A stretch of DNA of 4,141 nt from a virus. Taxonomy: Duplodnaviria > Heunggongvirae > Uroviricota > Caudoviricetes. This document shows, piece after piece, positions 2,015 through 4,141 of the stretch; the stretch's first letter is position 1, and each line of letters begins with the position of its first letter. Both the position numbers and the translations under genes were made by a program. The stretch is from IMG/VR virus record IMGVR_UViG_2778261231_000011, one strand, 5' to 3'. Below the pieces are notes generated by a model that was not told the origin of the DNA, did no database searches, and saw nothing but the letters and a program-made list of their open reading frames with translations.

Positions 2015-2063
2015 CTTCCATTAATCCCTGAATTGTTGGTTAATACGCTTGAGGGTGAATGCG

Positions 2064-2091
2064 AATAATAAAAAAGGAGCCTGTAGCTCCC
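2064..2091 (-). terminator. Candidate intrinsic (rho-independent) terminator on the minus strand
   Basis: The minus-strand RNA would read G-GGAGC-UACAG-GCUCC-UUUUUUAUUAUU: a 5 bp GC-rich stem (plus 2076-2080 pairing with 2086-2090), a 5 nt loop, and a U-tract (plus-strand A-tract 2064-2075). It lies between the stop of the 71-aa ORF and the start of the TraR-like gene. Confidence 0.4.
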
Positions 2092-2112
2092 TGATGATTT
2101 TGCTTTTCATGT

Positions 2113-2328
2113 TCATCGCTCCTTAAAGAAGCCGTTTAACATGCCGATCGCCAGGCTTAAATGAGTCGGTGTGAATCCCATCAGCGTTACCGTTTCGCGG
2201 TGCTTCTTCAGTACGCTACGGCAAATGTCATCGACGTTTTTATCCGGAAACTGCTGTCTGGCTTTTTTGATTTCAGAATTAGCCTGACGGGCAATGCTGC
2301 GAAGGGCGTTTTCCTGCTGAGGTGTCAT
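2113..2328 (-). CDS. Hypothetical small basic protein, 71 aa (alternative in-frame upstream start at 2394 would give 93 aa)
   Basis: This is the listed ORF 2113..2394, called here from the internal Met (MTPQQENALRSIARQ...). That ATG forms an ATGA overlap with the stop of the upstream 27-codon ORF and has a GGGA 8 nt upstream. The 2394 start has no visible Shine-Dalgarno. The protein is net basic. Confidence 0.5.
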   Translation of the reverse strand: MTPQQENALRSIARQANSEIKKARQQFPDKNVDDICRSVLKKHRETVTLMGFTPTHLSLAIGMLNGFFKER

Positions 2329-2408
2329 TGAACAAGTCCCATGTCGGCAAGCATAAGCACACAGAATATGAAGCCCGCTGCCAGAAAAATGCATTCAGTG
2401 GTTGTCAT
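2325..2408 (-). CDS. Unlisted 27-aa hydrophobic micro-ORF (MTTTECIFLAAGFIFCVLMLADMGLVQ), possible small membrane peptide
   Basis: Found by reading the minus strand between two listed ORFs. Its ATG (2408-2406) overlaps the TGA stop of the 63-aa ORF, and its TGA stop (2327-2325) overlaps the ATG of the 71-aa ORF, both as ATGA. The core is hydrophobic, long enough for one transmembrane helix. It falls below the ORF-track size cutoff. Confidence 0.3.
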   Translation of the reverse strand: MTTTECIFLAAGFIFCVLMLADMGLVQ

Positions 2409-2596
2409 ACCTGGTCTCTCTCATCTGCTTCTGCTTTCGCCACCATCATTTCCAGCTTTTGTGAAAGGGATGCGGCTAACGTATGAAATTCTTCGTCTGT
2501 TTCTACTGGTATTGGCACAAACCTGACTCCAATTTGAGCGAGGCTATGTGCCATCTCGATACTCGTTCTTAACTCAACGGGAGATGCTTTATGCAT
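2405..2596 (-). CDS. Hypothetical small acidic protein, 63 aa
   Basis: Minus-strand ORF MHKASPVELRTSIEMAHSLAQIGVRFVPIPVETDEEFHTLAASLSQKLEMMVAKAEADERDQV. It is net acidic, with a purine-rich stretch (GGGGGG) a few nt upstream of the ATG. It is the first gene of the leftward coupled cassette. The family was not recognised. Confidence 0.5.
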   Translation of the reverse strand: MHKASPVELRTSIEMAHSLAQIGVRFVPIPVETDEEFHTLAASLSQKLEMMVAKAEADERDQV

Positions 2597-3150
2597 ACAG
2601 CCCCCCGTTTATTATTTATCTTCTCAGCCAGCCGCTGTGCTTTCAGTGGATTTCTGATAAACGCCTTTACCCGAATCAGGTAAACACAAAAGACAAACTA
2701 ACAAAAGACAATATAAAACCTTTTTCGTCAGAGAATTCTGGCGAATCCTCTGACCAGCCAGAAAACGATCTTCCTGTGGTGAAACCGGATGCTGCAATTC
2801 AGAGCGGCAGCAAGTGGGGGACAGCAGAAGACCTGACCGCCGCAGAGTGGATGTTTGACATGGTGAAGACCATCGCGCCATCAGCCAGAAAACCGAATTT
2901 TGCAGGGTGGGCTAACGATATCCGCCTGATGCGTGAACGTGACGGACGTAACCACCGCGACATGTGTGTACTGTTCCGCTGGGCATGCCAGGACAACTTC
3001 TGGTCCGGTAACGTGCTGAGTCCGGCCAAACTCCGCGACAAGTGGACCCAGCTCGAAATCAACCGAAACAAGCAACAGGCTGGCGTGACAGCCGGCAAAC
3101 CAAAACTCGACCTGACGAACACTGACTGGATTTACGGGGTGGAGCTATGA
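2548..3150 (+). CDS. O: Replication protein O, C-terminal (P-interacting) domain only; N-terminally truncated with a non-homologous GTG-initiated 5' extension; possibly a pseudogene or remnant
   Basis: From about 2685 onward the translation (TKDKLTKDNIKPFSSENSGESSDQPENDL...WGTAEDLTAAEWMFDMVKTIAPSARKPNFAGWANDIRLMRERDGRNHRDMCVLFRWACQDNFWSGNVLSPAKLRDKWTQLEINRNKQQAGVT...KPKLDLTNTDWIYGVEL) matches, from memory, the linker and C-terminal domain of lambda O. The stop overlaps the P start as ATGA, as in lambda. The first roughly 45 codons show no O similarity. The frame opens at 2527 and the only upstream start is GTG 2548 (GAGG 4 nt upstream); the first in-frame ATG is 2584. Confidence 0.7.
   Translation: MPSRYSFLTQREMLYAYSPPFIIYLLSQPLCFQWISDKRLYPNQVNTKDKLTKDNIKPFSSENSGESSDQPENDLPVVKPDAAIQSGSKWGTAEDLTAAEWMFDMVKTIAPSARKPNFAGWANDIRLMRERDGRNHRDMCVLFRWACQDNFWSGNVLSPAKLRDKWTQLEINRNKQQAGVTAGKPKLDLTNTDWIYGVEL
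2681..2740. other. Remnant of a lambda-type replication origin: AT-rich unwinding segment without the upstream iterons
   Basis: An AT-rich run carries the direct repeat ACAAAAGACAA twice (2686-2696 and 2701-2711), followed by TTTTTCGTCAGAGAATTCTGGCGAATCC with an EcoRI site at 2733-2738. This matches my recollection of the right half of ori-lambda, which lies inside O. No 18-19 bp iteron repeats are visible in the 250 bp upstream. Confidence 0.5.
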
Positions 3151-3848
3151 AAAACATCGCCGCACAGATGGTTAACTTTGACCGTGAGCAGATGCGCCGG
3201 ATCGCCAACAACATGCCGGAACAGTACGACGAAAAGCCGCAGGTACAACAGGTAGCGCAGATCATCAATGGTGTGTTCAGCCAGTTACTGGCAACTTTCC
3301 CGGCGAGCCTGGCTAACCGGGACCAGAACGAACTGAACGAAATCCGCCGCCAGTGGGTGCTGGCTTTCCGGGAAAACGGGATCACCACAATGGAACAGGT
3401 TAACGCAGGAATGCGCGTAGCCCGTCGGCAGAATCGACCATTCCTGCCATCACCCGGGCAGTTTGTTGCCTGGTGCCGGGAAGAAGCATCCGTTAACGCC
3501 GGGCTGCCAAACGTCAGCGAGCTGGTTGATATGGTCTATGAGTATTGTCGGAAGCGTGGCCTGTATCCGGATGCAGAGTCTTATCCGTGGAAATCAAACG
3601 CGCACTACTGGCTGGTTACCAACCTGTACCAGAACATGCGGGCCAATGCGCTTACTGATGCGGAATTACGGCGCAAGGCTGCCGATGAACTGACTTGTAT
3701 GACCGCGCGAATTAACCGTGGTGAGGCGATACCTGAACCAGTAAAACAACTTCCTGTCATGGGCGGTAGACCTCTAAATCGTGCACAGGCTCTGGCGAAG
3801 ATCGCAGAAATCAAAGCGAAGTTCGGACTGAAAGGAGCAACTGTATGA
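3147..3848 (+). CDS. P: Replication protein P (lambda P family; DnaB helicase loader), 233 aa
   Basis: The translation (MKNIAAQMVNFDREQMRRIANNMPEQYDEKPQVQQVAQIINGVFSQLLATFPASL ... AKIAEIKAKFGLKGATV) is recognised as near-identical to bacteriophage lambda P at the same length. ATGA overlaps link it to O' upstream and ren downstream. Confidence 0.93.
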   Translation: MKNIAAQMVNFDREQMRRIANNMPEQYDEKPQVQQVAQIINGVFSQLLATFPASLANRDQNELNEIRRQWVLAFRENGITTMEQVNAGMRVARRQNRPFLPSPGQFVAWCREEASVNAGLPNVSELVDMVYEYCRKRGLYPDAESYPWKSNAHYWLVTNLYQNMRANALTDAELRRKAADELTCMTARINRGEAIPEPVKQLPVMGGRPLNRAQALAKIAEIKAKFGLKGATV

Positions 3849-4141
3849 CGGGCAAAGAGGTAATTATTCATTATCTGGAGACGCACAAGAGCTTCTGTGC
3901 GCAGGACGTTGCTGCGGCAACAGGTGTGACAGTAACCTGCATAAATCAGGCAGCAGCTAAAATGGCGCGGGCAGGAATCCTGGTCATTGATGGTAAGGTC
4001 TGGCGAACGGTGTATTACCGGTTCGCTACCAGAGAAGAACGGGAAGGAAAGGTGAGCACGAACCTGATTTTTAAGGAGTGTCGCCAGAGTGCCGCGATGA
4101 AGCGGGTGTTGGCGGTATATGGGTTATTAGTTATTACTTGA
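3845..4141 (+). CDS. ren: Ren (Rex-exclusion resistance protein) homologue, 98 aa, complete with stop at 4139-4141
   Basis: The translation MTGKEVIIHYLETHKSFCAQDVAAATGVTVTCINQAAAKMARAGILVIDGKVWRTVYYRFATREEREGKVSTNLIFKECRQSAAMKRVL closely matches lambda Ren as I recall it. It sits immediately after P with an ATGA overlap. The last roughly 8 residues may diverge from lambda. Confidence 0.82.
   Translation: MTGKEVIIHYLETHKSFCAQDVAAATGVTVTCINQAAAKMARAGILVIDGKVWRTVYYRFATREEREGKVSTNLIFKECRQSAAMKRVLAVYGLLVIT

What the first reader, a model, noticed from the sequence alone, without database searches (positions are those of the whole stretch)
2113..2596. Three small minus-strand ORFs chained by ATGA overlaps, including an unlisted hydrophobic peptide
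The acidic 63-aa ORF, a 27-codon hydrophobic ORF (MTTTECIFLAAGFIFCVLMLADMGLVQ) and the basic 71-aa ORF are joined by two consecutive ATGA stop/start overlaps (2405-2408 and 2325-2328). This signature of translational coupling is unlikely to arise twice by chance in non-coding sequence. An acidic protein, a membrane-type micro-peptide and a basic protein translated in fixed proportion resembles small toxin/antitoxin-like, Kil-like host-takeover or anti-defence cassettes in lambdoid accessory regions, but no family could be assigned.
Basis: seen in the sequence. Interest (0 to 1): 0.6.

Follow-up and report, generated by a model that had tools for sequence, protein, structure and literature searches.

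The report
Hidden 27-codon membrane-peptide gene in lambda
Between two known small early genes of lambda-like phages (orf63 and orf61) lies an unannotated 27-codon gene for a very hydrophobic peptide; it evolves like a real protein and was unknowingly hit by a published "orf61" mutation.

Summary
On the minus strand, orf63 (2405-2596), a 27-codon ORF (2325-2408) and a 71-codon ORF (2113-2328) are chained by two ATGA overlaps.

The flanking genes are not family-less. They are orf63 (DUF1382, PDB 8DSB) and orf61 (phrog_303) of the lambdoid exo-xis region. No toxin-antitoxin or defence family matched.

The 27-mer (MTTTECIFLAAGFIFCVLMLADMGLVQ) is identical in phage lambda itself and present in 175 phage records. 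The stretch holding it occurs in 3541 of 5426 complete E. coli genomes. RefSeq lambda and PGAP do not annotate it, and I found no paper that mentions it.

In about 247 related sequences there was no credible indel. The piN/piS ratio in its frame is 0.07-0.10, like orf61 (0.06) and orf63 (0.17). The other two frames, including the annotated 93-aa and lambda 61-aa orf61 N-terminal extension, give 1.2-2.4.

I conclude that it is a real, translationally coupled gene for a small hydrophobic peptide, probably membrane-inserted, and that orf61 starts at 2328. The published lambda "orf61" frameshift (deletion of C at lambda 30957) falls in codon 18 of this ORF.

It is a new member of a known kind. Its function is unknown.

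The parts
2405..2596 (-). orf63 (63 aa, acidic, DUF1382), the upstream gene of the chain
   Evidence: Pfam DUF1382 E 3e-31; PDB 8DSB E 2e-33; phrog_292; pI 4.96 and Shine-Dalgarno pairing -9.4 kcal/mol; piN/piS 0.17-0.19
2405..2408 (-). First ATGA overlap: orf63 stop TGA and the 27-mer start ATG
   Evidence: Read in sequence. Kept in all but one of about 247 relatives and in the divergent 1H12 lineage
2325..2408 (-). 27-codon ORF MTTTECIFLAAGFIFCVLMLADMGLVQ, proposed small hydrophobic (membrane) peptide gene
   Evidence: Identical ORF in lambda, L004 3226-3309. 175 phage records at >=92.6% identity. No credible indel in about 247 sequences. piN/piS 0.07-0.10 against 1.2-2.4 in the other frames. 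83% of heterozygosity falls at its third codon positions, permutation p 0.005-0.006. In the 1H12 lineage 5 of 7 differences are synonymous. GRAVY 1.62, beyond what composition gives. SD pairing -5.6 kcal/mol at spacing 6
2325..2328 (-). Second ATGA overlap: 27-mer stop TGA and orf61 start ATG (GTG in about 15% of relatives)
   Evidence: Read in sequence. The A>G change at nt 81 is synonymous for Q27 and turns ATG into GTG
2113..2328 (-). orf61, 71-aa form (basic, three-helix protein), the downstream gene of the chain
   Evidence: phrog_303 positions 23-93/101. PGAP annotates the 71-aa form. AF2 pLDDT 83.6 with three helices. piN/piS 0.06. Weak SD pairing of -3.9 kcal/mol. In L008 an unrelated gene ends 8 nt before this start
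2329..2394 (-). Alternative 22-codon N-terminal extension of orf61 (93-aa annotation from ATG 2394), rejected as coding
   Evidence: Frame B piN/piS is 1.2-1.6, and 9 of 10 alleles found in two or more haplotypes are nonsynonymous there. No SD (-3.8 kcal/mol at spacing 13). A polymorphic TGA/GGA lies just upstream. The literature notes that residues 1-23 do not model consistently (PMC8614690)
2021..2116 (-). 31-codon ORF linked to orf61 by a third ATGA (2113-2116); the likely real start is ATG 2110 (29 aa) behind AAGGAG
   Evidence: piN/piS 0.27-0.31 in frame against 0.8-2.8 out of frame, and most relatives have GTG at the overlap codon. Annotated as a 29-aa CDS in phage 21 and phage 4A7. A 31-aa peptide gene 'orf2313' was reported from lambda ribosome profiling (PMC8614690)
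2074..2092 (-). Terminator-like hairpin followed by a T run, inside the 31-codon ORF and downstream of orf61
   Evidence: The position matches the predicted terminator t2 between orf61 and orf73 in PMC4195576
2569..2660 (-). 3' remnant of orf60a (DUF1317), overlapping the start of orf63; similarity to exo-xis regions ends at 2660
   Evidence: PGAP annotation of L257 mapped onto the window; breakpoint located

Best explanation
The 84 nt between orf63 and orf61 are a genuine protein-coding gene of the lambdoid exo-xis (early, pL-transcribed) operon. It encodes a 27-residue, strongly hydrophobic, single-helix peptide that most likely inserts into the inner membrane. The proposed mechanism has three steps. 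A ribosome finishing orf63 at UGA reinitiates on the overlapping AUG, helped by a modest Shine-Dalgarno site. It translates the 27-mer and terminates at a second UGA. That UGA overlaps the AUG or GUG of orf61, whose own ribosome-binding site is weak, so orf61 translation depends largely on this relay. The true orf61 product is therefore the 71-aa three-helix protein starting at 2328. It is not the 93-aa form, and not lambda's 61-aa form, which is a frameshift allele. Shown here: the ORF, both overlaps, its conservation, amino-acid-level purifying selection in this frame only, and hydrophobicity beyond what composition gives. Inferred: translation in vivo, coupling, membrane insertion, and any effect on the host.
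For: 1. Anatomy: both ATGA overlaps are present.
2. Conservation: the identical ORF is in lambda itself. It is in 175 phage records, 138 of them with an identical peptide. The orf63/27-mer/orf61-start stretch is in 3541 of 5426 complete E. coli genomes.
3. Frame integrity: spacing is identical in 247 of 249 anchored sequences. The two exceptions are an in-frame duplication inside orf63 and an error-ridden assembly.
4. Selection: piN/piS is 0.07-0.10 in the 27-mer frame, against 0.06 for orf61 and 0.17 for orf63. The two other frames give 1.2-2.4. piS is the same as in the neighbouring genes, 0.055-0.08.
5. Codon positions: the four commonest polymorphisms are all synonymous third positions in this frame and nonsynonymous in the orf61-extension frame. 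Permutation gives p 0.005-0.006.
6. Independent lineage: in 1H12, 7 of 84 nt differ; 5 are synonymous and the ORF and both overlaps are intact.
7. Initiation signals: SD pairing is -5.6 kcal/mol for the 27-mer and only -3.9 for orf61. About 15% of relatives use GTG for orf61.
8. Hydrophobicity: GRAVY 1.62 and a 21-residue window of 2.42, reached by fewer than 1% of open shuffles.
9. Other orf63 homologues overlap directly with a real downstream gene (Klebsiella phage), so the slot after orf63 is normally a coupled gene.
10. Genetics in the literature: the published 1-bp deletion called an 'orf61 frameshift' (PMC4195576 Table 1) maps to codon 18 of the 27-mer and had a phenotype in lambda, where orf61 proper is already frameshifted.
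11. Circumstantial: phi24B lacking the exo-xis region induces degP (log2 -3.0) and htpX (-2.4) less than wild type (PMC10789677 Table 4). These are envelope-stress genes.
Against: There is no direct evidence of translation. According to the review PMC8614690, the lambda ribosome-profiling study reported extra peptides of 7 and 31 aa in this region, not one of 27 aa. That study's paper was not readable here, and footprints over this ORF would have been credited to the annotated orf61. The selection signal rests on few events: 24 variant alleles, three of which carry most of the heterozygosity. The raw synonymous/nonsynonymous count is only marginal (10/14, p 0.04-0.08), and sequences share ancestry. 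The family is narrow (E. coli and Shigella lambdoid phages, >=92% identity), so there are no distant homologues to test. The peptide has no basic residues flanking its hydrophobic core, which is unusual for a membrane anchor. orf61 can exist without it (L008). No family matches it.
Confidence: 0.65

Rival explanations
1. The bridging ORF is translated only as a relay. Its translation carries ribosomes from orf63 to the poorly initiating orf61, and the peptide itself has no function and is degraded.
For: orf61 has a weak SD site (-3.9 kcal/mol) and a GTG start in about 15% of relatives. Both junctions are ATGA. orf61 functions in another context without the ORF (L008). The peptide has no relatives or family.
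Against: A pure relay needs only an open frame. Here amino-acid changes are rare and at low frequency (piN/piS 0.07-0.10, as low as in orf61). The peptide is far more hydrophobic than composition predicts. 209 of 246 sequences encode the identical peptide while synonymous sites vary freely.
Confidence: 0.15
2. The 27-codon frame is spurious. The region is the N-terminal part of a longer Orf61: 93 aa from ATG 2394, as annotated for phi24B vb_24B_7c and in many GenBank records, or 61 aa in lambda.
For: The longest ORF runs from 2394. Many database records and PHROG phrog_303 use the 93-aa form. The exo-xis literature uses it (PMC8614690, PMC6213356).
Against: The extension frame has piN/piS 1.2-1.6, and 9 of 10 recurrent alleles change its amino acids. 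There is no SD site before ATG 2394. The lambda-specific upstream start is closed by a TGA in about 75% of relatives. PGAP calls the 71-aa form. The 71-mer folds confidently on its own (pLDDT 83.6), whereas residues 1-23 of the 93-mer model inconsistently (PMC8614690). The mosaic junction in L008 lies directly before the 71-aa start.
Confidence: 0.1
3. The stretch is a non-coding spacer kept for an RNA or DNA element (regulatory RNA, terminator, protein-binding site), and the open frame is incidental.
For: The nucleotide sequence is highly conserved among lambdoid phages. Promoter and terminator elements have been predicted nearby in the literature (PMC4195576).
Against: Diversity at frame-A synonymous sites equals that of the neighbouring genes, so there is no extra nucleotide-level constraint. 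Variation has three-base periodicity. No Rfam family matches at E<=1. The RNA folds worse than its shuffles (z +2.07). No promoter-like or terminator-like site lies inside 2325-2408.
Confidence: 0.05
4. One reading: the trio is a toxin/antitoxin-like or anti-defence cassette. The hydrophobic peptide would be a membrane toxin, and an acidic or basic partner would neutralise or regulate it.
For: The peptide's size and hydrophobicity resemble type I toxins such as DinQ, TisB and ShoB (established knowledge). Orf63 expression lowers host survival, and Orf63 has a hydrophobic cleft that binds a single helix (PMC10869804). The exo-xis region raises degP and htpX expression (PMC10789677).
Against: There are no hits in PADLOC, NCBIfam, Pfam or PHROG functional categories. 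No antisense RNA or promoter was found on the opposite strand. The genes are internal to a long early operon rather than forming an autonomous module. Orf61 fold searches give only generic helical bundles. Published phenotypes concern lysis-lysogeny timing, not addiction or defence (PMC6213356, PMC5575149).
Confidence: 0.05

Closest known systems
Exo-xis region of lambdoid and Shiga-toxin phages (conserved block orf60a-orf63-orf61-orf73-ea22; Wegrzyn and Donaldson laboratories)
   Same: The window carries this block: orf63 (DUF1382, PDB 8DSB), orf61 (phrog_303), an orf73-type TraR/DksA zinc finger (1796-2014) and a DUF4222 gene, next to xis and int. It is 95-99% identical to lambda, phage 21, 933W and phi24B.
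   Different: The 27-codon ORF is not among the genes named in that literature or in RefSeq lambda. It lies inside what is annotated as the N-terminus of orf61. In this window the block is also cut off from exo and pL by a junction at 2660.
Small single-helix membrane proteins of enterobacteria under 50 aa (for example KdpF, AcrZ, MgtS; surveys by Hemm, Storz and colleagues). From established knowledge.
   Same: Size, one hydrophobic helix of about 21 residues, missed by annotation pipelines, and recognised through conservation and ribosome-binding context.
   Different: It is phage-encoded and initiated by stop-start overlap inside an operon. It has no basic residues flanking the helix (net charge -2). 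Its partner and localisation are unknown.
Type I toxins (DinQ 27 aa, TisB 29 aa, ShoB 26 aa, Ibs 19 aa, Hok/Gef). From established knowledge.
   Same: Very short hydrophobic peptides. The circumstantial link to envelope stress in the literature would fit a membrane-active peptide.
   Different: No antisense RNA antitoxin, no own promoter or long structured leader, operon-internal coupling, and no sequence similarity.
Translationally coupled overlapping genes with AUGA junctions (trpE-trpD and trpB-trpA in E. coli; O-P and P-ren in lambda)
   Same: The same four-base stop-start overlap. O'-P (3147-3150) and P-ren (3845-3848) in this very window use it.
   Different: Here a micro-ORF sits as the middle link of a relay of three (with the 31-codon ORF, four) small genes.

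Membership tests
Lambdoid exo-xis conserved block | orf63 homologue (DUF1382 / IPR009814) | tested here: met
   Pfam E 3e-31, full length; PDB 8DSB E 2e-33
Lambdoid exo-xis conserved block | orf61 homologue directly downstream of orf63 | tested here: met
   phrog_303 E 3e-35; 96-99% DNA identity to lambda, 933W and phi24B
Lambdoid exo-xis conserved block | Location between exo and xis on the leftward early transcript | tested here: inconclusive
   Met in related phages and E. coli genomes. In this window xis and int are present, but exo and pL are replaced by ori/O'-P-ren after position 2660
Small membrane protein (single transmembrane helix, under 50 aa) | One hydrophobic segment long enough to span a bilayer | tested here: met
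   21-residue window C6-V26 has mean Kyte-Doolittle 2.42; 19-residue window 2.33. No dedicated transmembrane predictor was available
Small membrane protein (single transmembrane helix, under 50 aa) | Translated and found in the membrane fraction | not testable with these tools
   Needs tagging and fractionation, or ribosome profiling
Protein-coding gene (general) | Purifying selection on amino acids in its own frame only | tested here: met
   piN/piS 0.07-0.10 against 1.2-2.4 in the other frames; permutation p about 0.005; 1H12 lineage 5 synonymous and 2 nonsynonymous. Few events, so moderate power
Type I toxin-antitoxin | Antisense or overlapping small RNA antitoxin with its own promoter | tested here: not met
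   No Rfam match at E<=1. No promoter-like site on the + strand within 2300-2450.
Type I toxin-antitoxin | Toxicity of the peptide on overexpression | not testable with these tools
   Experiment needed
Type II toxin-antitoxin or known anti-phage defence system | Similarity of any component to known toxin, antitoxin or defence profiles | tested here: not met
   PADLOC 0 hits, NCBIfam only noise, Pfam none. Fold searches of Orf61 give generic helical bundles only
ZapA (the name PGAP gives many orf61 proteins) | Match to Pfam ZapA above the gathering score, or a ZapA-like fold | tested here: not met

The most novel reading that the evidence does not exclude
The 27-residue peptide is a functional, membrane-active micro-protein of lambda and Shiga-toxin phages that accounts for part of the phenotypes so far credited to orf61. 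In lambda PaPa orf61 is already broken, and both the published frameshift and the deletions remove the peptide. It may act together with Orf63, for instance as the natural single-helix ligand of Orf63's hydrophobic cleft. It may also be the source of the envelope-stress (degP, htpX) signature of the exo-xis region.
Probability: 0.2. Interest if true: 0.7.

Novelty: new member of a known kind. Interest (0 to 1): 0.55.

Why it matters
Lambda is among the best-annotated genomes in biology, and its exo-xis region is studied as a modulator of Shiga-toxin prophage induction. If the 27-codon ORF is a real gene, three consequences follow.

- The orf61 annotation needs correcting: 61 aa in lambda and 93 aa in phi24B and many other records should become 71 aa plus a separate micro-gene.
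- Published orf61 frameshift and deletion phenotypes become ambiguous. The mutations destroy the micro-gene as well, and in lambda they mostly destroy only that.
- A membrane peptide becomes a concrete candidate for the unexplained host effects of the region (survival, adsorption, chaperone and envelope-stress expression) and for the unknown helical partner of Orf63.

The stretch that holds it is in about two thirds of complete E. coli genomes, usually in several copies.

Tried and rejected
1. Distant homologues of orf61 (P0120, P0124) turned out to be indel-ridden assemblies, not diverged genes, so they were unusable.
2. The genome-contig scan with Orf63 returned mostly lambda-identical contigs in assemblies of unrelated species (contamination). 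It added no new diversity.
3. The 27-mer was too short for the search for related loci and the search for homologous proteins. tblastn against phages found no relative below 92.6% identity.
5. The lambda ribosome-profiling paper (PMC3718152) is not held. The peptide sequence occurs in no held paper and not in the supplements of the O157 Sakai small-gene paper.
6. Rfam, RNA folding and promoter/terminator scans gave no support for an RNA or DNA element in 2325-2408.
7. PADLOC, NCBIfam and Pfam gave nothing for the 27-mer or for a toxin-antitoxin or defence reading.
9. A scan for more members of the divergent 1H12 lineage found only one further contig.
10. Contig L226 has the same length as the window (4141) but is not the same sequence.

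Full report
**What is in the window**

The minus strand carries a phage-21-type integrase (1-1143) and excisionase (1133-1369). These are followed upstream by a DUF4222 gene (1509-1748), a TraR/DksA zinc-finger gene of the orf73 type (1796-2014), a 31-codon ORF (2021-2116), a 71/93-codon ORF (2113-2328 or 2113-2394), the 27-codon ORF (2325-2408) and a 63-codon ORF (2405-2596). The stretch 1400-2660 is 94-99% identical to the region between exo and xis of phage 21, lambda-like coliphages and Shiga-toxin phages. The finding therefore lies in the well-known lambdoid exo-xis region, which is transcribed early from pL in intact phages (PMC8614690).

**The observation**

Both ATGA overlaps are present at the stated coordinates. 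The three ORFs have the stated lengths and charges: pI 4.96, GRAVY 1.62 and pI 10.0. Chance alone would give such a perfectly bridging ORF at roughly a few per thousand. The frame stays open in 42% of spacer shuffles. The spacer length must be in the right phase (1/3). Both overlap contexts must be present, which I estimate at about 0.02. Fewer than 1% of open shuffles are as hydrophobic. A third ATGA (2113-2116) continues the chain into the 31-codon ORF.

**Identity of the flanking genes**

- The 63-mer is lambda Orf63: Pfam DUF1382 E 3e-31, PDB 8DSB E 2e-33, phrog_292. It is a dimeric two-helix, one-strand protein with 'pro-lytic' phenotypes. It has a hydrophobic cleft that binds a single helix, and its natural partner is unknown (PMC10869804).
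- The 71-mer is orf61: phrog_303, matching profile positions 23-93 of 101. PGAP often names it 'cell division protein ZapA'. That name rests on a sub-threshold Pfam match of 16.1 bits against a cut-off of 23.8.
- No toxin-antitoxin or defence profile matches any of the products.

**The 27-codon ORF in other genomes**

Phage lambda has the identical ORF at lambda 30925-31008 (L004 3226-3309). RefSeq lambda does not annotate it. Phage 21, phage 4A7 and PGAP on E. coli genomes do not either. PGAP leaves a 76-nt gap between the 71-aa orf61 and orf63. The exact peptide has been called as a 'hypothetical protein' on 981 contigs and has a UniRef entry. No held paper contains the sequence, and the exo-xis literature does not mention it. 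tblastn finds it in 175 phage records, 138 of them identical and none below 92.6% identity. The stretch 2300-2660, which holds it, occurs in 3541 of 5426 complete E. coli genomes, with a median of two places per genome.

**Is it coding?**

I collected about 247 copies from IMG/VR and metagenome contigs, using anchors in orf63 and orf61.

- Frame integrity. Spacing was identical in all copies but two. One exception is an in-frame 6-nt duplication inside orf63. The other is an error-ridden assembly. 209 of 246 encode the same peptide. One has lost the start codon, four have Q27stop and one has lost the stop codon.
- Commonest polymorphisms. The four commonest (nt 72 A>G, n=91; nt 12 T>G, n=60; nt 81 A>G, n=38; nt 39 C>T, n=7) are all synonymous third positions in the 27-mer frame. 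All four are first positions, and nonsynonymous, in the orf61-extension frame.
- piN/piS. The ratio is 0.07-0.10 in the 27-mer frame, 0.06-0.07 in orf61 and 0.17-0.19 in orf63. The two other frames of the same 78 nt give 1.2-1.6 and 2.0-2.4. piS is alike in all three genes (0.055-0.08), so there is no extra nucleotide-level constraint.
- Calibration. The 31-codon ORF, for which the literature cites ribosome-profiling support (PMC8614690), gives 0.27-0.31.
- Periodicity. 83% of heterozygosity sits at third positions of the 27-mer frame (permutation p 0.005-0.006).
- Independent lineage. The most divergent lineage (phage 1H12 and one IMG/VR contig) did not match my anchors and so is independent of that set. 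It differs at 7 of 84 nt. Five differences are synonymous third positions and two are adjacent replacements (A20S, D21G). The ORF and both overlaps are intact.

Caveats: the number of independent events is small. The raw allele count is only marginally biased (10 synonymous to 14 nonsynonymous, p 0.04-0.08). No distant homologues exist.

**Where orf61 starts**

The 93-aa form (ATG 2394) and lambda's 61-aa form read through the 27-mer region in another frame. That frame shows no constraint, has no Shine-Dalgarno site, and its lambda-specific start is closed by a TGA in about three quarters of relatives. In L008 an unrelated 251-aa gene ends 8 nt before the MT... start of orf61. Lambda's orf61 is a frameshift allele, with A7 instead of A6 in a run of A. 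Only 21 of 236 loci have A7, and 16 of those are identical to lambda. This agrees with the remark that lambda Orf61 looks truncated and unstructured (PMC8614690).

**How it most likely works**

orf63 has a good ribosome-binding site (-9.4 kcal/mol), the 27-mer a modest one (-5.6, spacing 6) and orf61 a poor one (-3.9). About 15% of relatives start orf61 with GTG. The simplest model is a termination-reinitiation relay, orf63 to 27-mer to orf61. In this model the peptide is itself a selected product: a single hydrophobic helix (C6-V26), probably in the inner membrane. Other orf63 homologues overlap directly with a real downstream gene. In a Klebsiella phage that gene is a methyltransferase, and in another element it is a 71-aa protein. 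This fits the view that the slot after orf63 holds a coupled gene. The RNA of the region is less structured than its shuffles (z +2.07), and no Rfam family matches.

**Link to published genetics**

The 1-bp deletion used as the 'orf61 frameshift' in lambda (primer CTTCATATTCTGTGTG*TTATGCTTGCCGACAT, deleted C; PMC4195576 Table 1) maps to lambda 30957, which is window 2357. That is the first base of codon 18 of the 27-mer. It delayed phage development after induction (PMC4195576). Deletions of the annotated orf61 in lambda and phi24B (PMC6213356) would, by the annotated coordinates, also remove the 27-mer. Infection with phi24B lacking the exo-xis region gives lower degP (log2 -3.0) and htpX (-2.4) expression than wild type (PMC10789677 Table 4). 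This is compatible with, but does not prove, a membrane-perturbing product in the region.

**Verdict**

The flanking genes are already known. The toxin-antitoxin or anti-defence reading is unsupported. The 27-codon ORF is best explained as a real, unannotated, translationally coupled gene for a small hydrophobic peptide, and orf61 should be read as 71 aa. It is a new member of a known kind (small membrane proteins, coupled micro-ORFs). Interest is moderate, because it sits in lambda itself and changes how published mutants should be read.

Noticed in passing
window 2660-2684 (junction), 2684-4126: Similarity to exo-xis regions stops at 2660, inside orf60a. From 2684 the window is 93.9% identical to lambda 39119-40562: the ori AT-rich part just after iteron 4, the O C-terminus, P and ren. 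So exo through the N-terminal half of O, including the immunity region and pL, is missing. None of 5426 complete E. coli genomes holds this junction. It is either a rare deletion derivative or an assembly chimera. In this context the three ORFs have no known promoter.
   Followed up: partly
L004 (lambda 30839-31024), window 2272-2278 A-run: The reference lambda orf61 is a frameshift allele, with A7 instead of A6 in a run of A. Its annotated 61-aa product joins the out-of-frame 27-mer region to a truncated orf61. 215 of 236 loci have A6. Of the 21 with A7, 16 are identical to lambda.
   Followed up: yes
window 2357 (lambda 30957): The published 'orf61' frameshift mutation (deletion of C; PMC4195576 Table 1) lies in codon 18 of the 27-codon ORF. 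It would turn the peptide into a 42-aa product and break the overlap with orf61.
   Followed up: yes
window 2021-2116 and 2074-2092: A 31-codon ORF is joined to orf61 by a third ATGA. In most relatives the overlap codon is GTG, and the ATG at 2110 behind AAGGAG (29 aa) is the likelier start. piN/piS is 0.27-0.31 in frame. The ORF contains a terminator-like hairpin that matches the predicted t2 of the literature. It probably equals the 31-aa 'orf2313' reported from lambda ribosome profiling (PMC8614690, PMC4195576).
   Followed up: partly
L131-L144 (genome-contig hits): Lambda-type exo-xis sequence (Orf63 95% identical to the window's; the A7 loci among them match the lambda allele) occurs on low-coverage contigs in assemblies labelled Shewanella, Bradyrhizobium, Pseudomonas, Paenibacillus, Kitasatospora, Oceanobacillus and others. 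This is almost certainly lambda control or marker DNA contamination.
   Followed up: partly
L007 1250-2560: In an E. coli genome (GCA_026134875.1) an IS3-family element is inserted in orf61 after codon 26 or so. orf63 and the 27-codon ORF upstream remain intact.
   Followed up: no
L008 1738-2716: A metagenome contig has orf61 directly behind an unrelated 251-aa gene, with no orf63 and no 27-mer. This mosaic junction lies right at the 71-aa start. The middle of this orf61 copy also reads in another frame for about 12 codons, either from compensating indels or from sequencing errors.
   Followed up: partly
window 2113-2328: Many RefSeq and GenBank records name orf61 'cell division protein ZapA'. 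The only basis I could find is a sub-threshold Pfam match of 16.1 bits against a cut-off of 23.8. No ZapA-like structure appears among the listed fold-search hits.
   Followed up: yes
window 3147-3150 and 3845-3848: The O'-P and P-ren junctions on the + strand are also ATGA overlaps. This stop-start arrangement is the normal style of gene junctions in this phage group.
   Followed up: no
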